From a virus (Duplodnaviria > Caudoviricetes), in IMG/VR virus record IMGVR_UViG_3300034160_000048, positions 1 to 59,561 of that record: DNA of 59,561 nucleotides, one strand, 5' to 3'. Positions 4,200 through 58,708 of the stretch are shown piece after piece. Numbering within the stretch: the stretch's first letter is position 1; each line of letters starts with the position of its first letter. The position numbers were made by a program, and so were the translations under genes. The notes below the pieces were generated by a model, which ran no database searches, was not told the origin of the DNA, and worked only from the letters and a program-made list of their open reading frames with translations.

Positions 4200-4784
4200 G
4201 TGGAGTTGATCAAGCACATCAAGCGTAGCCAAATCGTGTCCGAGAACGATGATGGCACGGTGTCGTACATCACGGCAGCCGGGGAACTCGTGAGAGCGAA
4301 CCCGGACACGTTCGAAGTGATCGAGGATGCGGAGGAAGTGGAGGCACTCGGAGATGTTCCGACCCCCGACGTCCCCGCGAAGGCGAAGAGGGTCCGAGCC
4401 CCCCGCAAGGTGGCGAAGCCCAAGGAAGAGAAACCCAAGTCAGAGACAGGAGATAAGACGATGGCGAAGGCAAAGAAGAAGGCAGCGAAGAAGGCCGGAA
4501 ACGGCAGCGGCGCTGCGGTGCGGACGATCAGCGGCAAGACCGTTGATCTCAGCAAGTACGTGGCCGCGAAGGCCCCGGGCGGCGGCAAGTCGTTCAACAA
4601 CGGTGACGACGTCGCCACCAAGCTGGCGGGCAAGGACCTTGATTCGGTCTATTCGTACGCCGCGAAGACCCTCAAGGTCGAGGAGAAGGAACTCCGCTCG
4701 AAGTACAAGCACCTGAACCCGGGCATGCAGCGCATGAACCTGGGCAACCGGCTGCGCAAGGGCCTGAACGCCAAGGCGGCCTGA
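4200..4784 (+). CDS. basic Lys/Ala-rich putative DNA-binding protein (YxHLNxGMQRMNLGNR family); internal in-frame start at 4461
   Basis: GAGGAG before GTG 4200; second RBS AGGAG before ATG 4461; paralogous to 58709-59257. Confidence 0.7.
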   Translation: MELIKHIKRSQIVSENDDGTVSYITAAGELVRANPDTFEVIEDAEEVEALGDVPTPDVPAKAKRVRAPRKVAKPKEEKPKSETGDKTMAKAKKKAAKKAGNGSGAAVRTISGKTVDLSKYVAAKAPGGGKSFNNGDDVATKLAGKDLDSVYSYAAKTLKVEEKELRSKYKHLNPGMQRMNLGNRLRKGLNAKAA

Positions 4785-4857: not shown

Positions 4858-5043
4858 ATGAAAGAGACGATCTACACGCGCGAAGGGCAGAAGATCTGGG
4901 AGAAGGGTGCCAACGATTCTTGGTATCTGCTCGAGCACTTCAAGTCGATCAACGCCGCCAAGCGCAAGTCGCGTGAGCTGCAGGGCGGTGCCGCCGGGCT
5001 GGGCTCCGGGATCCTGAGGGTGGGTAAGCCGGGAGAAGCATAA
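4858..5043 (+). CDS. hypothetical protein
   Basis: GAGGAG RBS, TAATG coupling with primase. Confidence 0.65.
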   Translation: MKETIYTREGQKIWEKGANDSWYLLEHFKSINAAKRKSRELQGGAAGLGSGILRVGKPGEA

Positions 5044-6632
5044 TGGTGACCGAGGAGCAGGTCGAACAGTTCCTGTCCCTGTTCCAGGGCAACGGGCGCT
5101 CGTTCGGCCAGTGGAACCCCAATTCCAAGTCGAAGATGCTTACGGTCAAGTCTGAGTACACGACCGAGCACGCACGGGCGCACCTTGAGGGCGAAATCGG
5201 GCTGGGCATGGTGCCCATCCGCGACGACAATAAGTGCTTGTTTGCGGCTATCGACATCGACGTCCACGGCCCTAACGGCGGGCACGTGGACCTGATCGCA
5301 ATCGAGTCGCGGATTGCCAAGGCCGCGCTCCCCTTGATCGTGTGCCGTTCCAAGAGTGGCGGCGCACACTGCTACCTGTTCTTGAAGGAGCCCGAGGACG
5401 CGAACTCAGTACGGTTGATGCTGGGCCGCTGGGCTGCGGTCGTGGGGCACCCGACCGCCGAGATTTTCCCGAAGCAGGCCAAGCTGGACCCGCCCAAAGG
5501 CAGCACGGATCGCCCCCTTGGCAACTGGATCAACCTCCCGTACTTCATGGCCGAGGGCACGGATCGGTATGCGCTCGACGGCGGTAAGGAAGTCAACTTC
5601 GACTATTTCATAGAAATGGCCGAGGGCAAGCGTGCCTCGCTGTCCGACTATAGCACGGTCGCCTCTGAGGTGGACTATTCGAAGGGCCCGCCGTGCGTGG
5701 CCGAGATGGTGAGGAACAAGGTCGAGGAGGGCAACCGGAATCTGGCCGCCTTCCAGGCCGGCATCTTCCTGAAGCGCGCCTTCCCCGAGGACTGGCGCAC
5801 CCGGCTGGAGGAGTTCAATAAGCAGGCGTTCGTGTCGCCGCTCAACGTCCGCGAGATGCGCACCATCGGCGGCAGCATTTCGAAGAAGGACTACCAGTAC
5901 AAGTGCCGCGAGGAGCCTTGCAAGACGCTCTGCAATAAGGATCTATGCAAGACGCGTGAGTTCGGCATCAGCAAGGACGACAGCACCGCGAACGAGATCC
6001 CGATATTCGACGCCGTCGAGAAGGTGATCGCAACGCCAGTGCGCTGGGTGCTGCGGATCGGAAAGGACGAGATCGAGGTGACGACCCCGCAATTGTTCAA
6101 CTACGACATGGTGCGGCAGGCCGTGGGCGAGCGGCTGCACATCGTGCTGCCCCGGATCAAGAATCAAGAGTGGGACCAGTACCTGCGCGAGATCATGAGC
6201 AAGGTCCAGGTGCGGCGGGAAACCACCATCGAGGACATGATCTTCCAGAAGCTGTGCGAGTACCTGCGCCGGGTGCGAGTGGACAAGACGCGGCCCGAGG
6301 ACGACCGGCGCGAGGACCTGCGCCGGGGCCAGCCCGCCCTGATTTCGATCACCCGCATGACCTTCATCAACGGCAAGGCCGAGGCTGCCGGGGAATGCGA
6401 GTGGTACTTCGCGTTCCGTCTGTTTGATTTCGTGGACTACCTGACCCGCAAGAAGGCGCTGCCCGTGCCAGCGCACCAGATCGCAACGTGCCTGACCCGA
6501 GTGCTGGGCGAGGACGCGAAGCGGGACAAGATGCGCGTAGGGCCGCACCGTGTCACCAACGTGTGGTGTGTGCCCGAGAAGTCGGTCGAGGAAGAGAGCG
6601 TACCTGCGAAGACCTTTGAGCAGGAGTTCTAG
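5043..6632 (+). CDS. archaeo-eukaryotic-type primase / primase-polymerase with PriCT-like region
   Basis: DIDVH (DxD), CRSKSGGAHCYLF (SxH), GNWINLPY, EGNRN and Cys cluster. Confidence 0.85.
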   Translation: MVTEEQVEQFLSLFQGNGRSFGQWNPNSKSKMLTVKSEYTTEHARAHLEGEIGLGMVPIRDDNKCLFAAIDIDVHGPNGGHVDLIAIESRIAKAALPLIVCRSKSGGAHCYLFLKEPEDANSVRLMLGRWAAVVGHPTAEIFPKQAKLDPPKGSTDRPLGNWINLPYFMAEGTDRYALDGGKEVNFDYFIEMAEGKRASLSDYSTVASEVDYSKGPPCVAEMVRNKVEEGNRNLAAFQAGIFLKRAFPEDWRTRLEEFNKQAFVSPLNVREMRTIGGSISKKDYQYKCREEPCKTLCNKDLCKTREFGISKDDSTANEIPIFDAVEKVIATPVRWVLRIGKDEIEVTTPQLFNYDMVRQAVGERLHIVLPRIKNQEWDQYLREIMSKVQVRRETTIEDMIFQKLCEYLRRVRVDKTRPEDDRREDLRRGQPALISITRMTFINGKAEAAGECEWYFAFRLFDFVDYLTRKKALPVPAHQIATCLTRVLGEDAKRDKMRVGPHRVTNVWCVPEKSVEEESVPAKTFEQEF

Positions 6633-6634
6633 CT

Positions 6635-8347
6635 ATGGCCGACGTAAGAATCGACGAAGAGAAGCGCCGCTTCATTATCAAGGGCAACGGGCGCGACGAA
6701 ATGGGCGTGCTGTTCGGCCTGCCGTCCCGCAAGTGGATGCCGAGCATGGGCGTAATCATCGCCCCATTCACGCGGCTCAACGCCAAGCACCTCGCTGACA
6801 AGGCTTTCGCCGGCAAGGTGCAGCTGACCCCCGAAGTCCGCGACTATGTCGAGGCGCTGGCGGTGGCCCCGTCCTCCAACCGGACGTTCCCGTCATGGTA
6901 CGCCTACAAGACGCAGCCATTCTTCGACCAGCGGGCGGCGCTCAACAAGGTGTACGCTAACGACTTTGGCGCGCTCTTCATGAAGATGGGCGTTGGCAAG
7001 AGCAAAGTCGCCATCGACTTCATGTCGGCCAGCTACTACGAGCGCCGGATCGAGGCCGTGGTGCTGGTGTGCCCGCTGACGATCCACGCGGTGTGGGGCG
7101 GCCCAAACGGGGAGTTGGCGACCCACAGCCCCTGCCCGGTCAAGGTGGTGCAGGTGGACTCGAGTTTCGACGCCAGCTCGATAAAGCCGAGTCAGGACTA
7201 CCTGCTGTGGCTGCTGGTCGGGGTCGAGTCGCTGTCACAGGGGCGCACGTTCGACAAGTTGATGCCGTTCCTGCGCAACTACAAGTGCGGCGGGCTGGTG
7301 GACGAGGCCAGCCGGATCAAGAACCACGCGGCAATCCGGACCAAGCGAATGTTGGAGATGCGCAACCAGTTCAAGGTCCGGTTGATCTCGACCGGCACGC
7401 CCTCGACCCGCAGCCTGATGGACCTGTACTCGCAGTTCGAATTCCTGGACCCCAACATCATCGGGGTGGGCGACTACTACGCCTTCAGGAACCGGTACGC
7501 GGTGATGGGCGGATACAAGGGTAAGGAGATCGTAGGGTACCAGTACGTCGACGAATTGATGGGGCTGATCGAGCCCTATACGTACATCTGCGAGAAGCCG
7601 AAGGACCTGCCCCCGCAGCTCTTCACCAAGCGCACAGTGAAGATGACCGACGAGCAGCGCAAGATCTACGACGACATGCGCAAGGGCAAGATCGACGGCA
7701 ACGATGTCACCAACGTGCTGACCCGGGTCCTGCGGCTGCAGCAGGTGATCGGGGGGCACTATGCCTCCGACGACACCTTTGCCGTGGACCCGATATCGGG
7801 GCGCACCAAGCGAATCGCGGGCAAGGTGCACCGCATCCTGCCGCCCGACAAGAACCCAAAGATCAAGGCATTGCTTGAGGTAGTCGAGGAAGCAGGCGAC
7901 GAGCAAATCATCGTGTGGGCCAAGTTCCTGCCCGAGGTCGAGGACATCCGGTCGGTGCTGGCGGAGATTGGGCCAGTAGCGGTGTTCACCGGGGCGACAT
8001 CGGCAGCGGAGCGAATCGAACTCAAGGACGGCTTTCAGTCAGGCAAGTATCGGTTTTTCGTCGGCAACGCCCAGACGGGCGGGCTCGGGCTCACCCTGAC
8101 GGCAGGCAGTGTGATGGTATACTACTCAAACACGCACTCGCTGGAAGACCGGCTGCAGTCCGAGGACCGGGCGCACCGCCGGGGCCAAAAGGCGGACCGG
8201 GTGCTGTATGTGGACCTGTTCATGGAGAAGTCAGTAGATAAAATCATAGAGGAAAGCATCGTGGAGAAGAAAGACTTGGACGTTTACGTCCGCGAGAAGA
8301 TCAAGGCGGCGGGCAGCATGACCAAGGCATTCGGGGATGTACTGTGA
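6635..8347 (+). CDS. SNF2-family (SF2) helicase
   Basis: MGVGKS Walker A, DEAS Walker B, TGTP, GGLGLTLT, QSEDRAHRRGQ. Confidence 0.92.
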   Translation: MADVRIDEEKRRFIIKGNGRDEMGVLFGLPSRKWMPSMGVIIAPFTRLNAKHLADKAFAGKVQLTPEVRDYVEALAVAPSSNRTFPSWYAYKTQPFFDQRAALNKVYANDFGALFMKMGVGKSKVAIDFMSASYYERRIEAVVLVCPLTIHAVWGGPNGELATHSPCPVKVVQVDSSFDASSIKPSQDYLLWLLVGVESLSQGRTFDKLMPFLRNYKCGGLVDEASRIKNHAAIRTKRMLEMRNQFKVRLISTGTPSTRSLMDLYSQFEFLDPNIIGVGDYYAFRNRYAVMGGYKGKEIVGYQYVDELMGLIEPYTYICEKPKDLPPQLFTKRTVKMTDEQRKIYDDMRKGKIDGNDVTNVLTRVLRLQQVIGGHYASDDTFAVDPISGRTKRIAGKVHRILPPDKNPKIKALLEVVEEAGDEQIIVWAKFLPEVEDIRSVLAEIGPVAVFTGATSAAERIELKDGFQSGKYRFFVGNAQTGGLGLTLTAGSVMVYYSNTHSLEDRLQSEDRAHRRGQKADRVLYVDLFMEKSVDKIIEESIVEKKDLDVYVREKIKAAGSMTKAFGDVL

Positions 8348-8874
8348 GTGGCTTTATCGACCCCCGCTGCCCCCGCTGCGGCGGAAAAATTGGGGGGCCG
8401 CGAGAATTACATGAGCACCAAGACGGGTGCCCGCTGGACACGCACCCCGGGCAAAAATTCTATGGCAAGAAGCCTCCCGATTGCCCGCATTGTGGCGGCC
8501 CCTACCACGGAGTAGGGCTGGTTTGCCCCGTGGTCAAGGCTGTCCGAACTCTACCCCCGAAGGACGACGCGGACAAGCCGCAGATCTGGCGCGGGGCCCT
8601 CGATTACTTCCCGCTCGCCCTGATCGCCGTGGCCCGGGTCTCGGAGGTCGGTACGCGTGCCCCCGGGCACGAGTGGGGCGGCTGGCGTGACGTCCCGGAC
8701 GGCGCGAGGCGCTATACGGAGGCCATGGTGCGGCATCTGATGGCGGAGTCCACCGAGGGCCCGTACGACCTCACCGACAACCAACTCCACGCCGCTAAGG
8801 TTGCCTGGGGAGCGTTGTGTCGGCTCGAGCTGATGCTACGTGAGAAACGGGTGGACGCGGCCCCCGGCGCGTGA
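8344..8874 (+). CDS. dATP/dGTP diphosphohydrolase (DUF5664-like) with N-terminal Cys/His zinc-finger repeats
   Basis: KDDADKP...FPLALIAVARVSEVG...W...RYTEAMVRHL...LHAAKVAWGAL; CPxCGG x2. Confidence 0.75.
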   Translation: MSGFIDPRCPRCGGKIGGPRELHEHQDGCPLDTHPGQKFYGKKPPDCPHCGGPYHGVGLVCPVVKAVRTLPPKDDADKPQIWRGALDYFPLALIAVARVSEVGTRAPGHEWGGWRDVPDGARRYTEAMVRHLMAESTEGPYDLTDNQLHAAKVAWGALCRLELMLREKRVDAAPGA

Positions 8875-8880
8875 TACACT
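8852..8880 (+). promoter_or_regulatory. sigma70-type promoter, extended -10
   Basis: TGGACG-17 nt-TACACT with TGn. Confidence 0.55.
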
Positions 8881-8901
8881 AGAGGTCTAGAGGATACACA
8901 T

Positions 8902-9252
8902 ATGAGCACGGTCGAGCAGGAAATCGGGCACAAGCCCCGGGTCTACATCATCGAGCAGCAGGCTTTCGACTACAGCCCTGCTACGGTGTTTGGCATCCCA
9001 TTCTTCATGAACTTCCAGCCACTGGCCCCTGCGGGGGGCGGAGCGCCGGAGTCGTGGAACCAGATCTCGATGCACCAAGCCCGCAAGGAGTTGGCCGAGT
9101 ACGTGCCGGGAATGGACTACATCGTCCCTACCGGCAAGCCTGCCAAGATGCTCGCCGTGGGCATGCTGCTGGCGGAGAAGGGCAAGCGGCACAGGGTCCT
9201 CGGCTGGGACGCGAGGACGCAGCGCTACTTGGAATTCATCATCAACGTCTGA
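8902..9252 (+). CDS. hypothetical phage protein
   Basis: GAGGA RBS, 116-aa ORF in operon. Confidence 0.75.
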   Translation: MSTVEQEIGHKPRVYIIEQQAFDYSPATVFGIPFFMNFQPLAPAGGGAPESWNQISMHQARKELAEYVPGMDYIVPTGKPAKMLAVGMLLAEKGKRHRVLGWDARTQRYLEFIINV

Positions 9253-9266
9253 TAGAGGAGAACAGG

Positions 9267-9782
9267 ATGAATGAAAAGGCGAATGGCTATGGCCTCAAGG
9301 TCGGGCCGAAGCAGGTGGAAGCCGCACTGGCGACCCTCGAGGCTTACGTGGCGGAGCGGGCGGCGCTCGTCACCGACAAGGCCAAGATGGACTTGCTGGG
9401 ATCGATCAAGCTGATGGATGCCCTGTACAAGTTCAAGGACGAGGTCGCGGACCGGGTCAAGTCGCCCGCCGAGAAGGCTTATGACACACTCCGATTTGTC
9501 GTCGTCCCCGAGTGGATGGACGAAAAGGGCGTGCCGTCAATCACGGTCGAGGGCGTGGGGCGCTGCAACGTCACCGACGATGTGCAGGTGAAGGTCAACG
9601 CCAAGGGCGGGCTGTTCGAGTGGTTGACCAAGAACGAGTTCGAAGACATGATTCAGCAGAACGTCAACGCGCAAACGTTGGCGGCCTTTGTTCGCAAGCG
9701 GCTGAAGGCCGGGCTCCCTCTCCCTGACGCCGACGTCATGGAAGTGAAGCCCGTGACGCGGGCCGCAATTACACGTTCCTAA
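9267..9782 (+). CDS. conserved phage replication-module protein
   Basis: GAGGAG RBS before ATG 9267; VPEWMDEKGVxSITV and VNAQTLAAFVR pattern, located next to the SSB-like gene. Confidence 0.7.
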   Translation: MNEKANGYGLKVGPKQVEAALATLEAYVAERAALVTDKAKMDLLGSIKLMDALYKFKDEVADRVKSPAEKAYDTLRFVVVPEWMDEKGVPSITVEGVGRCNVTDDVQVKVNAKGGLFEWLTKNEFEDMIQQNVNAQTLAAFVRKRLKAGLPLPDADVMEVKPVTRAAITRS

Positions 9783-9798
9783 CAGGAGATCGACGATA

Positions 9799-10599
9799 AT
9801 GGCAACACAGCAGGCAAAGAAACCGCAGGCCCAGGCAGTTAAGCCCTCGGCCGCGAAGACGCCTACGCAGGCAGTGGCGGCGACGAAGCCGACCGCAGTA
9901 GCGACGGTGCCCGACTACATCAAGCAGGGGGCAGGCCGTGGTAATGAGAATGTGGAGATGTCGGATTACGTCATCCCCCGCATCGAGGTCGTGCAGGCGC
10001 TCTCCCCGTGCCTCAAATCCAACGACCCCTCGTACATCGAGGACGCGTCGCAGGGCGACCTCTACAACTCCGTCACCCGCGAGCTGTACGGCAACGCCGT
10101 TACGGTCATTCCGGTCGTCTTCCGCAAGGAATACCTCGTGTGGAAGGACCGCACCAAGGGCGGCGGGTTCCGGGGCGCGTACCCTTCGATGCAGGAGGCG
10201 CAGGCCCGGATCGACGGTGAGAAGGACGGAGCGGATCTCGTCACCAACGAAACCGCGCAGCAGTTCGTGCTTATCGTCCGCGAGGACGGCACGATGGACG
10301 AAGCCGTCGTGTCGATGTCCAAGACCAAGCTGAAGATCAGCCGTCAGTGGAACTCGCTGATCCGGATCAACGGCAACGACCGCTTCTCGCGTACCTACGT
10401 GTTGTCTTCGACCGAGGACAACAATGAGAAGGGCGACTTCTACAACTTCGCGGTGGCCAACGCCGGCTTCCCGACCGTTGAGCAGTACAAGCGGGCCGAG
10501 TCGCTGTTCGAAGCTATCGCTTCGGGCGCGCGTCGCGTGGTGGCGGACACCAGTGACGGTGACCTTGACGGGCAGGCGCAGGCCCGGGGCGAATACTGA
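9799..10599 (+). CDS. putative single-stranded DNA-binding protein
   Basis: GNENV..SD..IPRIxVVQALSP signature, acidic C-terminus, position between helicases. Confidence 0.65.
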   Translation: MATQQAKKPQAQAVKPSAAKTPTQAVAATKPTAVATVPDYIKQGAGRGNENVEMSDYVIPRIEVVQALSPCLKSNDPSYIEDASQGDLYNSVTRELYGNAVTVIPVVFRKEYLVWKDRTKGGGFRGAYPSMQEAQARIDGEKDGADLVTNETAQQFVLIVREDGTMDEAVVSMSKTKLKISRQWNSLIRINGNDRFSRTYVLSSTEDNNEKGDFYNFAVANAGFPTVEQYKRAESLFEAIASGARRVVADTSDGDLDGQAQARGEY

Positions 10600-10600
10600 G

Positions 10601-10750
10601 GGATCGTCAAAACCGCGCCGTGTTGCGGTAGAGATCGTGCTGCGATCGGCACAACGGCAGCAAGCGGCCCTCAGATAGGGTGAGTTGAAGTCACAGCCCC
10701 GCCGCAAGGCAACGGACCGTCACCCGGGTCCGGGGGCTCTGGCGCTGCAA
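10601..10750 (+). ncRNA. candidate structured RNA or ssDNA element
   Basis: Multiple nested hairpins, a GCAA tetraloop and a possible pseudoknot in a ~160-nt intergenic gap. Confidence 0.4.
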
Positions 10751-10762
10751 TAGAGGATTGGA

Positions 10763-12163
10763 ATGAAGACCACAGTATACTACGGCCCTCCGGGAACCGG
10801 CAAAACCCGCACACTCATGGAGCGTCTGACAGCGCATATCCAAGGGGGCGGCCGGAGGGCCCTTTTTTGCAGCCATACCAAGGCGGCTGCTCGCACCGCG
10901 TTTGAGCGGTGGGGCGGGGCCAGTGCGGGTGTAGACATCCAGACCCTGCACTCTTTCTGCTTTAAGGCCCTCAAGTTGACCCGGTCCCAGACGGTGGACG
11001 AGGCCAAGCTTGAAATCCTTCTTCATGAATTCGGGCTCGACATCGATGACGGCGGGGAGGGCAAGGCGTATGTTGAAGTTATGTCGGTGGCTCGAGCGAC
11101 TGGCGACGGCATGCTCGAAACGTACGACCGGCTTGGGCAGCCTGGAACTCGCTCACACTTCCAAGCCTTCGTGGCTACCTACGACCGCTGGAAGACCCAG
11201 TTCGGCTACCGGGACTTTAGCGACATGCTGGACGATTATTCCCGGAGCAACGATGCTGGGGGCTACGACCTGCTCGTGGTCGACGAAGCGCAAGACCTGA
11301 CCCCGCTCCATTGGAAGGCCCTGAGCCGCTTCATGGAGTTGAACCCTGACGCCGACGTCGTAATCGGCGGGGACGACGACCAGTGCATCTATAGTTATGC
11401 CGGGGCCGACGCCCACGGCATGGACACATTCATAAACCGCTACGGCGGCAACATCCGGACGCTGTCGCAGTCCTACCGTATTCCCCGCGTGGTGCACACC
11501 CTCGCCAAGTCGATCATCACCCGGGTCGAGAAGCGGGTGAAGAAGGTGTACAAGCCCACGAAGGAGCAGGGGACTTTCATGCTGTGGCCCGACCCCAGCT
11601 ACATGAAGCTGGACCCGGCCCGGGACACCCTTGTCCTGTTTAGTGACAAATTCGGCCGTCGCGACATCGAGGACCAGTTGCGCGATTCCGCCACACCCTA
11701 TGAGGCGGTGTCGGGGCTGCCGGGCCCGCTGCAGACGCGCGCCGGGCGGGCAATCCGGATGGCACACACCATAAAGGAGTGGACCGATGAAGATAAGGCT
11801 CTATTTAAAAAAGGACTCTCAGGGAGGGGTGTTGATTTGGCCGGATCAGTCGGTGTGGAAGCGGTCGCAGAAAAGATCCGCGCAGGATACTTCGACTACA
11901 CTACCGCCCGGATCGACGATGTGGACTATTTGGCCCGGGTCGACCACAGCCAGCCATGCAATATTCGGATTGCCACCATCCATGGGGCGAAAGGGATGGA
12001 GGCAGACGATGTCCATTTGTTTGACACCCGCTCCCAAGCCGCAATCTCCGAGTCCTTGGTCAACCCCGACCATGCGCACCGACTGGCATACGTCGCCGTG
12101 ACCCGGCCCCGCCACAACCTCTACATTTACGAGGGTGTCAACGGCTACGGTGGCTGGCAATGA
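10763..12163 (+). CDS. UvrD/Rep-like SF1 helicase
   Basis: GPPGTGKT, VDEAQD, GDDDQCIY, LSQSYRIP, TIHGAKGME, YVAVTR. Confidence 0.93.
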   Translation: MKTTVYYGPPGTGKTRTLMERLTAHIQGGGRRALFCSHTKAAARTAFERWGGASAGVDIQTLHSFCFKALKLTRSQTVDEAKLEILLHEFGLDIDDGGEGKAYVEVMSVARATGDGMLETYDRLGQPGTRSHFQAFVATYDRWKTQFGYRDFSDMLDDYSRSNDAGGYDLLVVDEAQDLTPLHWKALSRFMELNPDADVVIGGDDDQCIYSYAGADAHGMDTFINRYGGNIRTLSQSYRIPRVVHTLAKSIITRVEKRVKKVYKPTKEQGTFMLWPDPSYMKLDPARDTLVLFSDKFGRRDIEDQLRDSATPYEAVSGLPGPLQTRAGRAIRMAHTIKEWTDEDKALFKKGLSGRGVDLAGSVGVEAVAEKIRAGYFDYTTARIDDVDYLARVDHSQPCNIRIATIHGAKGMEADDVHLFDTRSQAAISESLVNPDHAHRLAYVAVTRPRHNLYIYEGVNGYGGWQ

Positions 12164-13995
12164 TGCCCTCGGTCGACTACCTGCTGTCGCTGCCCCGGCT
12201 GGCGCTCGACACGGAAACTACCGGCCTCGACTGGCAGCGCGACCGTGTATTTGGAATCGCGATGGCGTGGCGCGACACCGGGAAGATCGAGAGTATCTAC
12301 ATTGATCTGCGGGAAGGGCAGTGGCTGCGCTGGGCCCGGGACGTCCTGCCCCGGCTGCGGCATATCGTCAATCACAACATCAAGTTCGACTGGCACATGC
12401 TGCGGTCGATGAAGATCGAGCTGGCCCCCGGCGCGTGTGACTGCACGATGATCCGGGAGACGCTGATCGACGAGAACCAGTTCGAATACAACCTCGAGCG
12501 GGTGAGCCAGAAGTACCTGCACACCGGCAAGGTGAACATCTGGCAGGAACTTGCTGACCTATTCGGGGGAAAGCCGACCAAGGAGGCGCAGATAGGGAAC
12601 CTGTCGAAGGCCCCATCGGCACTCGTATCCAAGTACGCAACAGGGGACGCGGAGAATGCGCTACGCATCTGGGAACATCAGGAAGCACTACTTACAGCTG
12701 ACGATCTCGGAGTGGTTGCTGCCATGGAACGTAAGCTACTCCAGGTGGTTGCGGAGATGGAGCGGGGTGGCGTACGTGTTGATATGGACGCGGCTGAGCG
12801 AGCAGTATCCCTTATCGATGCGAACATGGCGACGGCTCAGAAAGCCTTGGATAGGGCCGCCGGTCGTCCCATCAACGCAAACTCCCCAGCGCAGGTTAAA
12901 GCGCTGCTCGGTGTGCATTGTGACGACAAAGGTGACTGGCGAACTCGTGACGGGTTACTTCTGGAGCCGACCGAGTCGGGCAAGAGCGGTGCGCTGCGTA
13001 CCGAAAAGCTCTATCAGTGCACCCTTCCTGAGGCGGCGCTTATCGCAGAACTACGAGGCGGCATTAAGGCGCGCGATGTCTTCCTGAAGAAGTACATCCT
13101 CCAGATGTCGGTCAATGGGTACGTGCACGCGAGCATCAACCAGACCAAGACCGAGGCGGGGGACGGCACCTACACCGGGCGGTTCTCGATCACGGAGCCC
13201 GCGCTGCAGCAGATCCACAAGCGCAATAAGAAGATGGCCGCAATCGTGCGGGCCTGTTTCCTGCCCGACGAGGGCTGCGAGTGGGGCTGCTGGGACTGGT
13301 CACAGAAGGACTTCCGGATCTTCGCGCACTATGTGAACGACCCCAAGATCAATTCCATCTACGAGAAAAACCCGCTCGCGGACTTTCACCGGGTGACCGC
13401 CGATTTGACCGGCCTGCCCCGGGACCCGGACCAGAAAACGGGCGGCGCGAACGCCAAGCAGATGAACCTTGGCCTCGTGTTCGGCATGGCCGCAGGGCGC
13501 ATGGCCAAGGAGATGAACCTGCCATTCACAACCGACGAGAGTGGGTACCTCAAGGCGGGCCCCGAGGCGGAGGCCCTGTTTGCCAAGTACCACAACAACA
13601 TCCCGGGCGTGCAGCAGCTCAAGAAGGCCGTGGGGTCCGTGGCCCGGAGCAGGGGACATATTGTAACCCAGCTTGGGCGGCGGCTTCACTTCCCGAACGG
13701 TGAGGGGGCATACAAGGCCGCCGGCATCCTGTTCCAGGCACAGGCGGCGGAGTCGATGAAGATCAAGATGTGCGAGATTTACGACATCATGCAGCAGCAG
13801 AAGGGGAGCCGGTTCCTGCTCCCGGTGCACGACGAGTTTGACTTTGCGCTGGGGCCCAACCGGGCCCCGACGTTTGACGCTGATATGACTGCGCTTTTGC
13901 AGAGGTTTGACGGGGACATCACCCCGCTCAAGTATCGAATTCCGATCCGCGCCGATTATGGCACGGGTCCTAACTGGTGGGAGGCGAGCAAGTGA
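12160..13995 (+). CDS. dpoZ: family A DNA polymerase with 3'-5' exonuclease, DpoZ-like
   Basis: DTETTG/HNIKFD exo motifs, TGRFS, motif A DWSQKDFR, motif B AKQMNLGLVFG, motif C VHDE; directly upstream of purZ. Confidence 0.85.
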   Translation: MMPSVDYLLSLPRLALDTETTGLDWQRDRVFGIAMAWRDTGKIESIYIDLREGQWLRWARDVLPRLRHIVNHNIKFDWHMLRSMKIELAPGACDCTMIRETLIDENQFEYNLERVSQKYLHTGKVNIWQELADLFGGKPTKEAQIGNLSKAPSALVSKYATGDAENALRIWEHQEALLTADDLGVVAAMERKLLQVVAEMERGGVRVDMDAAERAVSLIDANMATAQKALDRAAGRPINANSPAQVKALLGVHCDDKGDWRTRDGLLLEPTESGKSGALRTEKLYQCTLPEAALIAELRGGIKARDVFLKKYILQMSVNGYVHASINQTKTEAGDGTYTGRFSITEPALQQIHKRNKKMAAIVRACFLPDEGCEWGCWDWSQKDFRIFAHYVNDPKINSIYEKNPLADFHRVTADLTGLPRDPDQKTGGANAKQMNLGLVFGMAAGRMAKEMNLPFTTDESGYLKAGPEAEALFAKYHNNIPGVQQLKKAVGSVARSRGHIVTQLGRRLHFPNGEGAYKAAGILFQAQAAESMKIKMCEIYDIMQQQKGSRFLLPVHDEFDFALGPNRAPTFDADMTALLQRFDGDITPLKYRIPIRADYGTGPNWWEASK

Positions 13996-15098
13996 GAAGC
14001 AAGACAATTGTAACGGTACAGGACCTGCAGTTCGGCAGCACAGGAAAAGGGCTGATTGCGGGCAGTGTTGCGTGCGCATGGGAACCGGACACTGTAGTTA
14101 CGGCGTGGGGCCCGAACGCGGGGCACACTTTCCGCGACGGCGAGCTTAACATGATCACGACCATGTTGGCCAGCTCCTCGGTCGCCCCCAGCGTGCAGAA
14201 CATCCTCATTGGCCCCGGGTCGGTGGTCAACCTCGAGAATCTAGCGGCCGAGATCCGCGCCGTCGGGCCGTTGCTGTCGGGCAAGTGGTTGATTCTACAC
14301 CCACAGGCGGCGATCCTGCGGCCCGAGCACGCAATGGCGGAGAAGGCGTTGATCACCATCGGGTCCACCATGAAGGGGACTGCCGAAGCCGCGATCTCCA
14401 AGATGCGGCGCGGGACCAGTGCCACGGCGAAGCAGCTACAGCTCATGGTGCGCGAGCACTTGGAAGGCGTGCTCGATGAATTCGACGTCATGTTCAGCAT
14501 GGAAGAAAAGATGTATGACAAGTCCATCGACGTCAGCAGCCGTATGATTGTCGAGGGCGCGCAGGGCTTCTCGCTGGGCATCCACGGGCCGTTCTACCCT
14601 TATGGCACCAGCCGGGACATCAGCACCGCGCAGCTGTTTGCGGATTGCCGGATCCCGTTCCCGACGCAGGGCGAGAGGGTGGTCAATATTGGGTGCTGCC
14701 GCACTTACCCTATCCGCGTAGCTAACCGGTTCAACGACAAGGGCGAGATGGTCGGGACCAGCGGCGGGCACTACCCCGACCAAGACGAGCTTACATGGGA
14801 AGCCATCGGTCGCCCGGTGGAACTCACCACAGTTACGAAGCTCCCGCGCCGCGTGTTCAGCTTTTCAAATCTGCAGGTGGCGGAGGCGGCCCGGGTGATG
14901 GGCACGACCGAAATCGCGCTGACCTTCTGCGACTACATCGCGCCGAGGCCGGGCGAGGATCAGGGGTTGCCAAGGGCCGTCACGGCCTTCTCGGAGCGCA
15001 TCCGTCGAGCGACCGGCATCATGCCCTCCCTGTTCAGCTTCGGGCCCGACCGCGCCGACGTCATCGCCCGGACGGGCTCCGTGGCGCTGGGGGACTGA
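13992..15098 (+). CDS. purZ: PurZ, 2-amino-deoxyadenylosuccinate synthase (PurA paralogue)
   Basis: QFGSTGKG (Ser in place of PurA Asp), PNAGHT, EGAQGFSL, YPYGTSRD, PIRV, ELTTVTKLPRR; GTG 13992 overlaps pol stop. Confidence 0.93.
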   Translation: MRSKTIVTVQDLQFGSTGKGLIAGSVACAWEPDTVVTAWGPNAGHTFRDGELNMITTMLASSSVAPSVQNILIGPGSVVNLENLAAEIRAVGPLLSGKWLILHPQAAILRPEHAMAEKALITIGSTMKGTAEAAISKMRRGTSATAKQLQLMVREHLEGVLDEFDVMFSMEEKMYDKSIDVSSRMIVEGAQGFSLGIHGPFYPYGTSRDISTAQLFADCRIPFPTQGERVVNIGCCRTYPIRVANRFNDKGEMVGTSGGHYPDQDELTWEAIGRPVELTTVTKLPRRVFSFSNLQVAEAARVMGTTEIALTFCDYIAPRPGEDQGLPRAVTAFSERIRRATGIMPSLFSFGPDRADVIARTGSVALGD

Positions 15099-15099
15099 C

Positions 15100-15510
15100 A
15101 TGACGAGATTCTACGATCTTGACTGGAACAACATGCGCCGGGTGCAGCAGGCGATCACCGATTGGGCGGACTCGCAGTTCCCGGGCCGCACCGCCCAGCA
15201 CGCCCTGTCGAAACTGGTTCTCGAGGAAGTCCCGGAGCTGCTGCAGCACAAGAAGTTGCACGGCACCAAGGGGATCGACACGGAACTGGCCGACTGCTTC
15301 GTGTTGCTCATGGATCTGGCGTCGCTGTGGGGCGTGGATCTGCCCGCCGCGATCCGGGCCAAGATGATCATCAACGAGAAACGCGTCTGGAAGGTTGACC
15401 CCGACACAGGGCTCATGAACCACACCGACGGGGTGAAACCGCTGACGCGGGAAGAAATCCAGGAAGCGATTGTGCTGATCGAAGAAACTGAAGGAGGTTC
15501 CCATGACTAG
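15100..15510 (+). CDS. mazZ: MazG-like dNTP pyrophosphohydrolase (MazZ/DUF550-like)
   Basis: WADSQFP...LEEVPEL...ELADCFVLLMD...AKMIINEKRVW; between purZ and datZ. Confidence 0.8.
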   Translation: MTRFYDLDWNNMRRVQQAITDWADSQFPGRTAQHALSKLVLEEVPELLQHKKLHGTKGIDTELADCFVLLMDLASLWGVDLPAAIRAKMIINEKRVWKVDPDTGLMNHTDGVKPLTREEIQEAIVLIEETEGGSHD

Positions 15511-16099
15511 TCCCGAACTTAAGGCCCTGCTCAAACTGTCCACCGTCCCCCGCTGGGCGATTGTGGACATGAGCCGGCAGCAATCCGTGGCTGAGCACAG
15601 CTACCGGGTCTGGGCTATCGCCGCCGAGCTGTACAAGGTGTTGTACCCGGCGCCCCACAATCAGGTGGACGAAATGGCCACGGCCCGCTGGGCGCTGGTG
15701 CACGACGTCGAGGAGGCTTTCATGGGCGATACGCCCTCGACAGCCAAGGAAATCCTCGAAAGGGTGGCCCCCGGCGTGGGGCAGAAGTGGGTTGATGCGA
15801 TAATCCAAAAGGAGGTTCCAGGGGTCGCAGCGTTTGCCCGTGGCGTGAAAGGTTCGCCCCCGGGCCACGTGGTCAAGATCGCGGACATTCTGGAGGCCAT
15901 CCTGTTCACCTTTGACTACGCGGTGAACGCCGGGGAAAAGGTCCGGGTGCTCAATTTCCTGTACGCGCAGTTGGGCGCGGCCTGGAGAAAGGCGCAGGCC
16001 GACATGATTACAGCCGACTGGCTAGGGGCGGTCGATTTCCGAAACCAGCTGCTTGCGGCGGAGCCCGCCGTGGCTCGCATTGAGGTGGACTACCCATGA
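15503..16099 (+). CDS. datZ: HD-domain dATP triphosphohydrolase DatZ
   Basis: VPRW...QSVAEHSYRV...HDVEEAFMGD.P...VKIADILEA (YfbR-like HD fold) inside the purZ cluster. Confidence 0.85.
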   Translation: MTSPELKALLKLSTVPRWAIVDMSRQQSVAEHSYRVWAIAAELYKVLYPAPHNQVDEMATARWALVHDVEEAFMGDTPSTAKEILERVAPGVGQKWVDAIIQKEVPGVAAFARGVKGSPPGHVVKIADILEAILFTFDYAVNAGEKVRVLNFLYAQLGAAWRKAQADMITADWLGAVDFRNQLLAAEPAVARIEVDYP

Positions 16100-16368
16100 T
16101 CGACCTGTCCAAAGTGCCGCCAAAGTTGATTCACAACCTAATCAACGAGATGGCGGAGTTCAGGGCCTCCGGATTTAGGCAACCGATGCGTATTGACTAT
16201 GCCCTTGAAATGGTGCTGGCCATAGCGGAGCCCGAATTTTTTACCGAGTGGCGGCCTGCGCCCCGTTTTCACCCAACAGCCCGCCTTGAGAAAACGCCCG
16301 ATCTTTCCTCCACGGAAGACGTTTGGGGTTTCCTAAGGTCGAGCGGAGTTTATGACTCTCAGGTATGA
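16096..16368 (+). CDS. hypothetical protein
   Basis: GAGGTGG RBS, ATGA coupling; overlaps convergent gene by 128 bp. Confidence 0.5.
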   Translation: MIDLSKVPPKLIHNLINEMAEFRASGFRQPMRIDYALEMVLAIAEPEFFTEWRPAPRFHPTARLEKTPDLSSTEDVWGFLRSSGVYDSQV

Positions 16369-18361
16369 CTTCGTCCACGCCCTTAAGCTTGTCGAGCATC
16401 GCCTGCAGGAACTCCTCGTGGTCGAGTCCGAAGTAAGGTGAGTTAGGGTGCGGGTCAAGATTGTAGCTGGGCTCGAAAGGGGCCCCGGCCTCGTCGATGA
16501 TATGAGTAGGTGTTTTGACAATGTCGTCCAGTAAGAATCCCAAAGCCCCCGACCGGTGCCGGCCATTGTGACCCACCACGCGCACATCAGTGGGCAAGTC
16601 ACCGAGGCTGGGATCACCGAAGGACATGTGGAGGAAGGGTGGTTCACGGAGCCCCCTGCCGTGCGCCCCCATACTCGTAGCGAGGTCGAGCATGCTCGTC
16701 ATGTCTTCGGATGGCGAATCAAGAACTTGAAATGGCCGTTTTTGCTTGAGCCACGGACCAAGACCGTCGTTGTTGTTGATGTTGTGATACGTGACGCCTT
16801 GCTGCTTGGGGAAAGGGTTCGCTAGGTCGTTAAACTCGCCCTGGTCAAGCAGCGCTATTGGATATTCGGTGCCCGCCAGCTTGTACAGACCCTCGTCGGA
16901 TAGGTATTTACGAAACAACGGCTCTTCATCAAGCAGCCGTACCCCCCGGTCCGCGAACCTCTTACCTTTTTCATTCTTGATACGCAGCAAGGTGCCGACC
17001 TTGCCGCCGTTGGCCTTCTTGGCAAAGGTGCCCCGGGCAGAGCCAAGTAACTGTTCGTACGAGTCGGGGATGGTGTAGCCCGAAGAGGGTAGTAGCAATT
17101 CGTCCTGTCCCGACAGCAAATTAGGAAGCGCCCGCATGAGTTTGTCGCGGTTGATCGTGAAGGACACACCGCCCGGAACCTCCGTAGGCCGGTGCTTCGC
17201 CAAGTACGGGGCGCTCTGGGCAAAGTCGTCGGCCTGCCCCCGGGAGGTGCTGGCCGAGGACAACGCGTGCGGGCCAATCGTTACGTTGCCCCGGTCGGGG
17301 AACAGCTTGTACAGGTCCTCGACCGTATCTCCGTAGTAAATCCCCCGGTGCAGCGGGGTGGAGGGCTTGACATCGATAGCGTATTTCGAAAAAAGCTTGT
17401 TAAGGTCGTTGTCGCTAACGTGGTCTACCCACTCTGACATGTCGGCCAGTCTCTCGAAGTCATCCGTTCCCACGGCCGGGTACACAAACCCGGGGTGATC
17501 AATGGCGTCGAGATACGAGGAGCTGTTATCGCCGTAGTCGCCTTTGAACCCCTCGTCGTCCAACATTTTCAGGACGTTCTTGAGGCCGCGGACCTTTGAT
17601 ATTTTCCCGCCGCCGGCCATCGCCGGGACATGGGGATTAAGCCGCTGAGGGTCGCTGGCTGAGTAACGGCGGACTAATTCCCGGAAACTAAGTTCGTCGT
17701 CGGGCGAGGGGGCACGAGGCTCCTCCCCGTCGCCCAGCGTTCCGAGCGCGCCGCCTGCAACGGCCCCTGTGAGGTAGCTAGAGGCTTTGCCGTCCACAGT
17801 CGGGCCCAGGTATTCCGCAATTGCCCGCACGGGGTTGGCCTTGATCAACTCCGACGCAGTCTTCACGCCCTTAGCCGGGAGCAGCGGGATCTGGCCCAGC
17901 ATCGTCCCGCCCGCTTCCTCCAGGTTTTGCAGGAACCCCTCGGGCTCCGACAACCCGGCGTCCGCATTGATCTTTGCGCCGAGGGCCTCCTGCCGCGCAG
18001 ACGCTTCCTCCGCGAACTGCGGGGTGTCCATGGTGCCAACCCTTTCGGCAAGGCCCGGGGACACGTAGCGGTCGGCCAACTCCACGAGCCCGTTCGACAG
18101 GGCGGGTACCAGCGCCGGCAGCGCCAGCGCCTCATTGATTACGCCGGGCAACCGCATCCGGGGCCCCCGGTCGCTGTCCTCAATTGCGAAAGGCGCGGCA
18201 ACATTGCCTTCCTTGTCGAGCGACAGAAGCTGTGACATCAGGGCGGAAGCTACGCGGGCCCGGTCCTCGCTCCACGACGGGATTCCTGCGGCCCGAGCCA
18301 GATTTGCGCCCCACGCGGCAATCGAGGTGGGGTCACCCTTTGGCTTACTATCGTCCGGCAC
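16241..18361 (-). CDS. multidomain internal virion/ejection protein with putative ADP-ribosyltransferase and ParB/Srx-like domains
   Basis: GTG 18361 with GGAGG RBS; LHRG...SSASTS...QDELLLP; VVGHNGRHR; domains bounded by MAGGG, KANGG, FSQGG. Confidence 0.7.
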   Translation of the reverse strand: MPDDSKPKGDPTSIAAWGANLARAAGIPSWSEDRARVASALMSQLLSLDKEGNVAAPFAIEDSDRGPRMRLPGVINEALALPALVPALSNGLVELADRYVSPGLAERVGTMDTPQFAEEASARQEALGAKINADAGLSEPEGFLQNLEEAGGTMLGQIPLLPAKGVKTASELIKANPVRAIAEYLGPTVDGKASSYLTGAVAGGALGTLGDGEEPRAPSPDDELSFRELVRRYSASDPQRLNPHVPAMAGGGKISKVRGLKNVLKMLDDEGFKGDYGDNSSSYLDAIDHPGFVYPAVGTDDFERLADMSEWVDHVSDNDLNKLFSKYAIDVKPSTPLHRGIYYGDTVEDLYKLFPDRGNVTIGPHALSSASTSRGQADDFAQSAPYLAKHRPTEVPGGVSFTINRDKLMRALPNLLSGQDELLLPSSGYTIPDSYEQLLGSARGTFAKKANGGKVGTLLRIKNEKGKRFADRGVRLLDEEPLFRKYLSDEGLYKLAGTEYPIALLDQGEFNDLANPFPKQQGVTYHNINNNDGLGPWLKQKRPFQVLDSPSEDMTSMLDLATSMGAHGRGLREPPFLHMSFGDPSLGDLPTDVRVVGHNGRHRSGALGFLLDDIVKTPTHIIDEAGAPFEPSYNLDPHPNSPYFGLDHEEFLQAMLDKLKGVDEVIPESHKLRSTLGNPKRLPWRKDRAFSQGGLLGENGAQAATR

Positions 18362-58620: not shown

Positions 58621-58622
58621 AC

Positions 58623-58651: not shown

Positions 58652-58708
58652 GGTCGTGTTGGGGGGCGCAGTGCTCCCCGTGCCGACCAACCAATAGAGG
58701 ATAGCCAA

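What the first reader, a model, noticed from the sequence alone, without database searches (positions are those of the whole stretch)
12160..16099. Complete 2-aminoadenine (Z-genome) cassette: dpoZ-purZ-mazZ-datZ
Seen: four abutting or overlapping genes encoding PolA, a PurA paralogue with GSTGKG, a MazG-like hydrolase and an HD hydrolase. Established: this set makes dZTP, removes dATP and incorporates Z in phages such as S-2L and phiVC8. Inference: this ~60 kb podovirus-like phage replaces A with Z. Its structural module (GroES, xAxGG ejection proteins, glycosylation genes) looks unlike what I recall of the small phiVC8-type Z podoviruses, so it may be a separate lineage.
Basis: partly seen in the sequence, partly recalled or inferred. 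Interest (0 to 1): 0.8.

Follow-up and report, generated by a model that had tools for sequence, protein, structure and literature searches.

The report
Z-DNA gene cassette in uncultured phage
This complete 60-kb uncultured phage genome carries the well-known gene set that replaces the DNA base adenine with 2-aminoadenine; the cassette is ordinary, but its key enzyme belongs to an uncharacterised branch that may use a different energy donor.

Summary
Four co-directional, abutting or overlapping genes at 12160-16099 encode a phiVC8-type DpoZ polymerase, a PurZ synthase, an S-2L-type MazZ pyrophosphohydrolase and a DatZ HD hydrolase. Each gives its best or joint-best solved-structure match to the characterised Z-phage enzyme and keeps nearly all published catalytic and specificity residues.

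A fifth pathway-associated gene, a stand-alone DUF5664/PF18909 protein, lies upstream at 8344-8874.

The gene order is the known one. It is seen in SH-Ab 15497, PMBT28, PSA28, Bm1, phiVC8 and S-2L, and in most of 80 IMG/VR loci.

The "separate lineage" idea holds. No virion gene is shared with phiVC8, while 16 late-module genes match the non-Z Caulobacter Riverwalk phages, with the capsid protein 78% identical. The lineage is common in metagenomes: 12 of 22 Z-module records tested carry the same capsid.

This PurZ clade has the PurA-like triad T316/D319/S354 in its NTP-base pocket and falls below NCBIfam's PurZ cut-off. It may therefore use GTP.

No chemistry was measured. The scan has already flagged this cassette type on other DNA.

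Verdict: a new member of a known kind.

The parts
12160..13995 (+). dpoZ: family A DNA polymerase with 3'-5' exonuclease, phiVC8-like DpoZ
   Evidence: Best PDB match is 7PBK (phiVC8 DpoZ), E 7.6e-114, against Klenow at 4.7e-32. NCBIfam NF038380 phage_DpoZ_1 scores 664.9 bits, above the cut-off of 500. Identity is 40-41% to the SH-Ab 15497 and phiVC8 DpoZ, with no similarity to the RW PolA. Signature residues were read from the alignment.
13977..15098 (+). purZ: succino-amino-deoxyadenylate synthase (likely true start GTG 13992)
   Evidence: PDB matches: 6FM1 phiVC8 PurZ 1.5e-60, 7ODX S-2L PurZ 5.7e-53, 7VF6 PurZ0 1.6e-17, PurA no better than 9e-16. Tree. The dGMP-pocket residues are kept, including S21 and T284. 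NF038379 is the best family at 264.8 bits but below its cut-off of 300.
15100..15510 (+). mazZ: S-2L-type (PF04447-related) MazG-like (d)GTP pyrophosphohydrolase
   Evidence: PDB 7ODY (S-2L MazZ) 1.3e-11. Identity is 47.6% over 103 aa to the PF04447 region of SH-Ab 15497 MazZ and 39% to S-2L MazZ. Of 13 S-2L residues checked, 11 are identical, with I56 to V and N20 to F.
15503..16099 (+). datZ: HD dATP triphosphohydrolase
   Evidence: phrog_7076 2.5e-19 and PF12917 1.4e-13. PDB 6ZPA (S-2L DatZ) scores 5e-8, level with the generic HD proteins 1XX7 and 2CQZ. Of 13 S-2L residues, 12 are kept, including R-W-x-I (W18, I20) and the metal ligands H32, H67, D68, D128; P79 is T.
8344..8874 (+). Stand-alone DUF5664 (PF18909, 'dATP/dGTP diphosphohydrolase, N-terminal') protein with an N-terminal double CxxC segment; lies outside the finding's coordinates
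   Evidence: PF18909 8e-14 over residues 84-172. phrog_801 3.7e-11. Translation. The same domain forms the N-terminus of SH-Ab 15497 MazZ.
5043..12163 (+). Upstream replication module that travels with the cassette: primase (5043-6632), SF2 helicase (6635-8347), Pam3 gp32/gp33/gp34-like genes (8902-10599) and a UvrD/PcrA-like helicase (10763-12163)
   Evidence: PHROG and Pfam hits. The same order is seen across the 80 IMG/VR loci and in SH-Ab 15497, PMBT28 and PSA28.

Best explanation
This is a working 2-aminoadenine (Z) DNA module of the known phiVC8 / SH-Ab 15497 / S-2L kind, carried by an uncultured ~60-kb phage. The inferred mechanism, taken from the characterised homologues, runs as follows. 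MazZ, and probably the separate DUF5664 protein, hydrolyse dGTP (and possibly dATP) to the monophosphate, which supplies dGMP. PurZ condenses dGMP with aspartate, using an NTP as phosphoryl donor, to give dSMP. Host PurB and host kinases convert dSMP to dZTP. DatZ destroys dATP. DpoZ replicates the genome and prefers dZTP opposite T. The five genes sit in one tightly coupled early operon, together with the primase, two helicases and an SSB-like block. Shown here: homology, tree placement, residue conservation, synteny and co-occurrence. Inferred: every enzymatic activity and the presence of Z in the virion DNA.
For: Each protein gives its best or joint-best solved-structure match to the characterised Z enzyme. 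DpoZ passes NCBIfam's curated DpoZ cut-off (664.9 against 500). PurZ lies inside the PurZ clade (97/91), away from PurZ0 and PurA. It keeps S21 (PurA has Asp) and T284 (PurA has Gly), and 19 of the 21 other S-2L pocket residues are identical or, for Y21 to F, match phiVC8 (residue roles from PMC8342488, and the bioRxiv preprint). MazZ keeps E34, E35, E38, E50, D53, D60, K76, N80, R83 and W85. DatZ keeps the W-x-I pair, which the metagenome association preprint saw only on dZ-enriched contigs, and all metal ligands (roles). DpoZ keeps the exonuclease residues D/E; has K and I at R161/M165, which are allowed variants; has L, F and G at L455/F459/G548; and carries insertions 1 and 2 (my reading of the alignment against PMC8599892). 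Co-occurrence in IMG/VR: DatZ is present in 70 of 70 loci with at least 4 kb downstream of purZ, MazZ in 59 of 70, and DpoZ in 67 of 70 with at least 3 kb upstream. The gene order is identical in experimentally studied Z phages.
Against: No nucleoside chemistry or enzyme assay exists for this phage or its PurZ clade. PurZ scores 264.8 bits on NF038379, below the curated 300. Six cultured-phage PurZ/PurZ0 sequences, the characterised ones among them, scored 320-421.5, and clade-mates scored 269, 286.3 and 317.2. Its NTP-base pocket (T316, D319, S354) differs from every characterised ATP-using PurZ (N, N/Q, G). The MazZ is not picked up by PF04447 at E <= 0.01. DatZ has P79 to T, and by PDB search alone it cannot be told apart from generic HD proteins. 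DpoZ has the canonical E at S583 and an insertion 3 shorter by 8 residues. The DpoZ paper itself says that no single sequence feature explains Z-over-A preference and that a related PolA exists in a non-Z phage.
Confidence: 0.85

Rival explanations
1. The cassette is expressed, but adenine is only partly replaced, or the pathway is tuned differently. One route to this would be PurZ using GTP/dGTP as donor, so that it does not help deplete dATP.
For: The NTP pocket triad T/D/S equals that of both bacterial PurA sequences in my alignment. S-2L PurZ doubles as a dATPase (PMC8342488), a role that a GTP-type pocket would lose. The preprint abstract and PMC8342488 report partial substitution when clusters are expressed in E. 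coli.
Against: DatZ, DUF5664 and DpoZ are all present, and in characterised phages they act together to exclude A. Nothing in the sequence argues for leakiness.
Confidence: 0.08
2. The genes are ordinary nucleotide-metabolism auxiliaries: a PurA-like AMP synthase, a house-cleaning MazG, an HD 5'-nucleotidase and a normal PolA. No base is replaced.
For: Pfam alone names only generic families. PDB hits for the HD protein are level with non-DatZ HD proteins. PurZ is below NCBIfam's PurZ cut-off.
Against: Ser replaces the PurA catalytic Asp, and T284 replaces Gly. The tree places the protein away from PurA with 100/100 support. PurA models score 112.9 bits or less, against cut-offs of 368 or more. 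DatZ has the W-x-I pair, and the DpoZ model is passed.
Confidence: 0.03
3. The divergent PurZ clade makes a related but different purine nucleotide, for example by acting on another 6-oxopurine (deoxy)nucleotide, so the DNA carries a modification other than Z.
For: The clade is uncharacterised, contains no characterised or cultured-phage member in the tree (support 99/99), and lies at the edge of the family model.
Against: The dGMP pocket is essentially that of S-2L and phiVC8. The partner enzymes are the dGTP- and dATP-specific types, with their specificity residues D72 (D60 in S-2L) and I20 (I22 in S-2L) kept.
Confidence: 0.04

Closest known systems
Z-cluster plus DpoZ of Acinetobacter phage SH-Ab 15497, Salmonella phage PMBT28 and Pseudomonas phage PSA28
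   Same: Same order: helicase, gp32-34-like genes, UvrD/PcrA, DpoZ, PurZ, MazZ, DatZ. DpoZ is 40-41% identical, and the MazZ core is 38-48% identical.
   Different: Those phages have a small SSB gene between dpoZ and purZ, and their MazZ is a fusion of PF18909 and PF04447. Here the two domains are separate genes 6 kb apart. Their PurZ pocket is N/N/G, here it is T/D/S. Their genomes are 43-48 kb.
Cyanophage S-2L Z-cluster (purZ-mazZ-datZ; PDB 7ODX, 7ODY, 6ZPA)
   Same: Same purZ-mazZ-datZ order with overlapping genes. A short stand-alone MazZ of the same type, with the MazZ and DatZ key residues kept.
   Different: S-2L has no DpoZ and uses a PrimPol instead. PurZ identity is only 38%. S-2L PurZ uses ATP or dATP, with Q308 where this protein has D319.
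Vibrio phage phiVC8 (Enhodamvirus; PDB 6FM1, 7PBK)
   Same: The order dpoZ ... purZ, small gene, datZ, followed by a convergent virion module. The DpoZ insertions and signature residues match.
   Different: The phiVC8 small gene (p26) shows no detectable similarity to this MazZ. A 2.3-kb gene separates dpoZ from purZ in phiVC8. No virion gene is shared: the 8 of 66 ORFs that match are all early genes. The phiVC8 genome is 39 kb.
Caulobacter phages RW, RLK, KcrB and GB2A (proposed Riverwalkvirus, about 62 kb)
   Same: Closest cultured virion and packaging module: capsid 78%, TerL 51%, portal 44%, Cpn10 53%. 16 late-module ORFs are shared.
   Different: These phages have no PurZ, MazZ, DatZ or DpoZ (no Caulobacter record among the PurZ hits tallied). 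Their replication module is unrelated: DUF2800, DUF2815 and a 960-aa PolA.
PurZ0 of actinophages (Gordonia phage Archimedes, PDB 7VF6; Wayne-like)
   Same: Ser in the P-loop, and an Asp at the position of D319 in the NTP pocket.
   Different: PurZ0 is a separate clade (100/99) and only 27-30% identical. It travels with DutZ, DmtZ and DpoZ-1 rather than DatZ, MazZ and DpoZ-2 (PMC12884076).

Membership tests
PurZ (succino-amino-deoxyadenylate synthase) | Ser in place of the PurA catalytic Asp in the P-loop (G-S-x-x-K-G) | tested here: met
   GSTGKG, with S21 aligned to phiVC8 S14, S-2L S23 and Salmonella PurA D14.
PurZ (succino-amino-deoxyadenylate synthase) | Branches with characterised PurZ, not with PurA or PurZ0 | tested here: met
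   Careful ML tree of 36 rows. The PurZ clade of 27 rows has 97/91 support, PurZ0 100/99 and PurA 100/100. The window sits in a 12-row uncultured subclade with 99/99 support.
PurZ (succino-amino-deoxyadenylate synthase) | dGMP-pocket residues (S-2L Y21-S23, N49, A50, G130-T132, R146, Q190, Y203-T205, R240, V241, T273, R280) | tested here: met
   All are identical except Y21 to F (as in phiVC8) and C204 to G.
PurZ (succino-amino-deoxyadenylate synthase) | Adenine-type NTP pocket (phiVC8 N294/N297; S-2L N305/Q308) | tested here: not met
   T316 and D319, with S354 where ATP-type PurZ has Gly. This is the same triad as bacterial PurA. F317, Y320, G356 and P357 are kept.
PurZ (succino-amino-deoxyadenylate synthase) | NCBIfam NF038379 curated cut-off (300 bits) | tested here: not met
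   264.8 bits. It is the best family by 152 bits over any PurA model. Controls: S-2L 349.8, phiVC8 397.2, SH-Ab 421.5, PMBT28 407.6, Bm1 320 and Archimedes PurZ0 325. Clade-mates score 317.2, 286.3 and 269.
PurZ (succino-amino-deoxyadenylate synthase) | Makes dSMP from dGMP plus Asp | not testable with these tools
   This needs an enzyme assay.
phiVC8-like DpoZ (DpoZ-2) | NCBIfam NF038380 cut-off (500 bits) | tested here: met
   664.9 bits.
phiVC8-like DpoZ (DpoZ-2) | Signature residues L455, F459, G548 and S583; helix E2 R161/M165; insertions 1-3 (PMC8599892) | tested here: met
   L, F and G are kept. S583 is E. R161 is K and M165 is I, both variants listed in the paper. Insertions 1 and 2 are present, and insertion 3 is present but 8 residues shorter. 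This is my reading of the alignment.
phiVC8-like DpoZ (DpoZ-2) | Prefers dZTP over dATP | not testable with these tools
   The paper states that the preference cannot be read from any single residue.
DatZ (dATP triphosphohydrolase) | HD metal ligands (H34, H66, D67, D119) and phosphate contacts (R19, K81, K116) | tested here: met
   H32, H67, D68, D128, R17, K82 and K125.
DatZ (dATP triphosphohydrolase) | Specificity pair W20 (deoxyribose) and I22 (excludes the 2-amino group) | tested here: met
   W18 and I20. 70 of 76 DatZ homologues in the IMG/VR loci also read W-x-I. P79 is T.
MazZ, S-2L type (PF04447 / DUF550) | Metal-binding acidic residues E35, E38, E50, D53; guanine 2-amino contact D60; R83 | tested here: met
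   E43, E46, E62, D65, D72 and R95. I56 is V.
MazZ, S-2L type (PF04447 / DUF550) | Match to Pfam PF04447 | tested here: not met
   PF04447 was not reported at E <= 0.01; only PF03819 MazG appeared, at 0.0052. S-2L MazZ and SH-Ab MazZ do match PF04447, and the window protein is 39% and 47.6% identical to them.
Z-cluster (datZ-mazZ-purZ synteny, Czernecki 2021) | mazZ lies between purZ and datZ, and the genes are co-conserved | tested here: met
   Order purZ-mazZ-datZ with a 1-nt gap and an 8-nt overlap.

The most novel reading that the evidence does not exclude
This PurZ and its large uncultured clade form a third biochemical class. By descent and by their dGMP pocket they are PurZ, but they keep the guanine-recognising NTP pocket of PurA (Thr, Asp, Ser) and therefore use GTP or dGTP, not ATP or dATP, as phosphoryl donor. 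Of the 120 nearest database homologues, 110 read T-F-x-D-Y. If true, the switch to ATP happened, or was reversed, inside the DatZ/MazZ/DpoZ-2 type of Z phage, not at the PurZ0/PurZ split. These phages would then have to remove dATP without help from PurZ.
Probability: 0.45. Interest if true: 0.55.

Novelty: new member of a known kind. Interest (0 to 1): 0.35.

Why it matters
The window adds a complete, well-preserved Z-DNA module in a phage type whose cultured relatives use ordinary DNA: a Riverwalk-like virion of about 60 kb. This shows that the whole Z replisome block, from primase to DatZ, moves between unrelated virion chassis. The published picture already holds at least seven Z-phage groups, many of them next to canonical-DNA relatives (PMC12884076), so this extends that picture rather than changing it. 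The part worth an experiment is the PurZ clade with a PurA-like NTP pocket. A single enzyme assay would show whether donor choice varies within PurZ proper.

Tried and rejected
The search for related loci with the single PurZ protein found no relative in viral contigs. Repeating it with an alignment found 356.

Context therefore comes from IMG/VR loci only.

The genome-contig scan gave 14 loci of at most 44% identity, mostly short MAG contigs, and no host clue. No tRNA was found.

The promoter and terminator scans over 8000-17000 were not above shuffles: 3 found against 2.4 expected, and 8 against 7.6. I make no operon-boundary claim from them.

blastn of the cassette against cultured phages found only 4 short, weak matches.

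The branching order inside the PurZ clade is unresolved, so I do not claim that the T/D/S clade is basal or ancestral. The T/D/S versus N/N/G covariation is largely one clade against the rest. It counts sequences, not independent events.

Morphology (podovirus or not), the xAxGG motifs and the glycosylation genes were not examined beyond three Pfam/PHROG hits: Cpn10, a nucleotide-sugar epimerase, and a weak methyltransferase match.

My ORF picker is crude. It dropped the 762-aa ORF at 16241-18529 in favour of four short ORFs, so the figure of 66 ORFs is approximate.

I did not open any supplementary file. Supplementary Fig. S9 and Table S3 of PMC12884076, and the supplements of the bioRxiv preprint, may already list this lineage or this PurZ pocket type.

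I found no paper on a T-F-x-D PurZ with two searches. The paper that defined PurZ0 is not in the library.

PMC12884076 says that PurZ0 and PurZ prefer 'ATP and GTP, respectively'. This contradicts its own introduction and my recollection that PurZ0 uses GTP, so I treat it as a slip.

Recalled and not seen in any call: the three 2021 Science papers (Zhou, Sleiman, Pezo); the PurZ0 paper (Tong et al.); the E. coli PurA D333N GTP-to-XTP switch; and the role of PurA Ser414 at the guanine.

Full report
WHAT IS THERE. The window is an entire IMG/VR virus record of 59,561 b, rated 100% complete by CheckV, with no terminal repeats. G+C is about 61% throughout. Plus-strand early and replication genes run from about 58.2 kb, across the record's ends, to 16.4 kb. 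The late genes lie on the minus strand.

At the reported place, one search lists four plus-strand ORFs:
- 12160-13995 (611 aa)
- 13977-15098 (373 aa)
- 15100-15510 (136 aa)
- 15503-16099 (198 aa)

The second gene probably starts at GTG 13992. A GGAGG sits 7 nt upstream, the start forms a GTGA overlap with the polymerase stop, and the resulting N-terminus matches the homologues. The P-loop is included with either start.

IDENTITY OF THE FOUR GENES.

Polymerase. The best solved-structure match is phiVC8 DpoZ (7PBK, E 7.6e-114), against 4.7e-32 for Klenow. The protein passes NCBIfam's curated DpoZ model (664.9 bits, cut-off 500). It is 40-41% identical to the SH-Ab 15497 and phiVC8 enzymes. I read the alignment against the features listed in PMC8599892 (passages):
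- The exonuclease Asp and Glu are kept.
- The helix-E2 pair R161/M165 is K/I, both named there as allowed variants.
- L455, F459 and G548 are L, F and G.
- S583 is the canonical E.
- Insertions 1 and 2 are present, and insertion 3 is present but 8 residues shorter.

Synthase. The match to phiVC8 PurZ is 1.5e-60 and to S-2L PurZ 5.7e-53. PurZ0 (7VF6) scores 1.6e-17, and PurA scores no better than 9e-16. In a careful maximum-likelihood tree (36 rows, 364 columns) it falls in a 27-row PurZ clade with phiVC8, S-2L, SH-Ab 15497, PMBT28, PSA28 and Bm1 (UFboot 97 / SH-aLRT 91). PurZ0 (100/99) and two bacterial PurA sequences (100/100) lie outside. The branching order within the PurZ clade is unresolved.

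The residues that PMC8342488 (passages, section 8) and the metagenome association preprint (section 8) tie to dGMP binding are kept. These include S21, where PurA has Asp, and T284, where PurA has Gly.

MazG-like gene. Its only good solved-structure match is S-2L MazZ (7ODY, 1.3e-11). It is 47.6% identical to the PF04447 part of the SH-Ab 15497 MazZ and 39% to S-2L MazZ, and it shows no similarity to the small phiVC8 gene p26. Of 13 S-2L residues I checked, 11 are identical, including the metal ligands, D60 (which contacts the guanine 2-amino group) and R83. I56 is V and N20 is F; the paper calls N20 unique to S-2L. Pfam's PF04447 model does not report the protein at E <= 0.01.

HD gene. It matches phrog_7076 'dATP triphosphohydrolase' (2.5e-19) and PF12917. 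In the PDB search, S-2L DatZ (5e-8) is level with two generic HD proteins, so that search alone does not settle it. Three things do:
- It is 27-35% identical to the DatZ of Bm1, phiVC8, PMBT28, S-2L and SH-Ab 15497.
- 12 of 13 S-2L residues are kept, including the metal ligands and the W-x-I pair that excludes ribose and the 2-amino group (PMC8065100, passages). Only P79 differs, as T.
- It occupies the expected position after mazZ.

The preprint reports the W/I pair only on dZ-enriched contigs (section 10).

A FIFTH GENE. The ORF at 8344-8874, which overlaps the helicase stop, carries PF18909 (the former DUF5664, 'dATP/dGTP diphosphohydrolase, N-terminal'; 8e-14). This domain follows an N-terminal stretch with two CxxC pairs. 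In SH-Ab 15497 the same domain is fused to the PF04447 domain within MazZ. PMC12884076 (abstract; passages) reports that a stand-alone DUF5664 protein hydrolyses dATP and dGTP.

HOW ORDINARY IS THE ARRANGEMENT? Very.
- SH-Ab 15497, PMBT28 and PSA28 have helicase, three small genes, UvrD/PcrA, PolA, (SSB), PurZ, MazZ and DatZ in that order.
- Bm1 and phiVC8 have PolA ... PurZ, a small gene, then DatZ.
- S-2L has purZ-mazZ-datZ.

IMG/VR holds 356 PurZ relatives found with my alignment, and I examined the best 80. Among the 70 with at least 4 kb downstream of purZ, DatZ is present in 70 and this MazZ type in 59. Among the 70 with at least 3 kb upstream, DpoZ is present in 67. The primase, helicase, gp32-34-like and UvrD block precedes the cassette in most of them. 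The scan's own index holds 154 earlier notes on this gene set, in at least 130 genomes. These include the same four-gene block on other DNA.

WHICH PHAGE? No cultured phage resembles the cassette DNA beyond 4 short matches. PurZ is at most 46% identical to any of 203 cultured-phage records and at most 57% identical to any database protein.

The virion side tells another story. TerL (51%) and portal (43.5%) match best to Caulobacter phages RW, RLK, KcrB and GB2A. These form the proposed Riverwalkvirus genus of about 62 kb (PMC11053796, passages and section 13).

I compared 66 crudely picked window ORFs with whole genomes:
- RW shares 17. Sixteen are late-module genes, including the capsid at 78% and a Cpn10 gene. 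The seventeenth is a 22% helicase match. RW shares none of the Z genes.
- phiVC8 shares 8, all early or replication genes and none from the virion module.
- IMG/VR records G001 (65 kb) and G003 (57 kb) share 31 and 23, from both modules.

RW's own replication module is unrelated. The phage is thus a mosaic of a Riverwalk-like virion and the Z replisome block.

The lineage is not rare. I picked 22 of the 80 loci for their long contigs (46-89 kb). Twelve of those records carry this capsid protein at 74-81% identity, and 10 of the 18 records that are at least 90% complete do so. The portal was found in 3 of 5 records.

THE ONE UNUSUAL FEATURE. In characterised ATP-using PurZ, the adenine pocket reads N-F-x-(N/Q)-Y, plus a Gly two residues before the G-P stacking pair. 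PMC8342488 says that the amide at S-2L Q308 (phiVC8 N297) would clash with a 2-amino group.

Here the three positions are T316, D319 and S354, the same triad as in both bacterial PurA sequences in my alignment. The PurZ0 sequences have S/T, D and G/A.

Counts across the 219 aligned sequences:
- 107 read T/D/S.
- 81 read N/N/G.
- The rest are mixed.

Of the 120 best database homologues, 110 read T-F-x-D-Y, 3 read N-F-x-D-Y, 1 reads S-F-x-D-Y, and 6 could not be read. Of the 80 IMG/VR loci, only 3 are T..D, and those are the three nearest to the window. Seventy are N..N, 2 are S..D, 1 is T..N, and 4 could not be read.

The clade also sits at the edge of NCBIfam's PurZ model. The window scores 264.8 bits against a cut-off of 300, and three clade-mates score 269, 286.3 and 317.2. 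Six cultured-phage PurZ/PurZ0 sequences, the characterised ones among them, score 320-421.5. From memory, not from any call: in PurA this Asp reads the guanine of GTP, and PurZ0 is reported to use GTP.

A guanine-nucleotide donor is therefore a reasonable prediction for this clade, and I put it at about 45%. It would not change what the cassette is for. It would change how dATP is removed, because S-2L PurZ also burns dATP, and it would change where in PurZ evolution the switch of donor lies. The counts above are sequences in essentially one clade, not independent events.

VERDICT. The cassette is a canonical Z-DNA module with one extra gene upstream, in a common but uncultured phage lineage whose cultured virion relatives have ordinary DNA. 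It is a new member of a known kind.

Nothing here measures Z. The activities are inferred from homologues and conserved residues.

Noticed in passing
window 14922-14936 and 15036-15038 (PurZ residues 316-320 and 354): The PurZ NTP-base pocket has the PurA-like triad T316/D319/S354 instead of the N/N(Q)/G of characterised ATP-using PurZ. The three positions co-vary across 219 sequences (107 T/D/S, 81 N/N/G). The first two positions were already flagged by note e1-6241090; the Ser and the counts are new here.
   Followed up: partly
L112:7323-9014 (Terriglobus MAG, 4.38-Mb contig); also L113 and L114: Chromosomal bacterial genes in Acidobacteriota and Planctomycetota encode a fusion of 540-564 aa: a P-loop kinase-like domain (AAA_18) joined to a PurA-family domain. 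The PurA-family domain has Ser in the P-loop (GSEGKG) and an L-T-F-V-D-Y loop. They branch between PurZ0 and PurZ (100/99 as a group). They may be cellular relatives of PurZ.
   Followed up: partly
window 46842-47756 (-) and L085:4830-5744 (RW_GP086c): This 304-aa protein hits major-head-protein PHROGs (1.3e-10) and is 78% identical to RW_GP086c, which is annotated as hypothetical. The Riverwalk paper says the capsid gene of that cluster had not been identified, so RW_GP086c is probably that gene.
   Followed up: partly
window 8344-8600: The DUF5664 protein has an N-terminal extension of about 80 aa with two CxxC pairs, like a zinc ribbon. In G001 only the C-terminal 85 aa are matched.
   Followed up: no
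window 4200-4784 and 58421-59257: Two paralogous early proteins, which another note calls histone-like, each match phiVC8 p36 at 46-53% over about 77 aa, and also match genes in G001 and G003. This small domain therefore travels with the Z replication module.
   Followed up: no
window 50499-50936 (-): A Cpn10/GroES homologue (PF00166, 7.8e-9) lies inside the head module. It is 53% identical to the annotated GroES of phage RW.
   Followed up: partly
window 8902-9252 and 9054-9782: The Pam3 gp32-like and gp33-like ORFs overlap by 199 nt as called. The gp33-like Pfam match covers only residues 118-241, so the real start of the second gene is probably further downstream.
   Followed up: no
PMC12884076, section 24: The paper states that PurZ0 and PurZ prefer 'ATP and GTP, respectively'. 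This conflicts with its own introduction, where PurZ uses ATP. The order is probably swapped.
   Followed up: no
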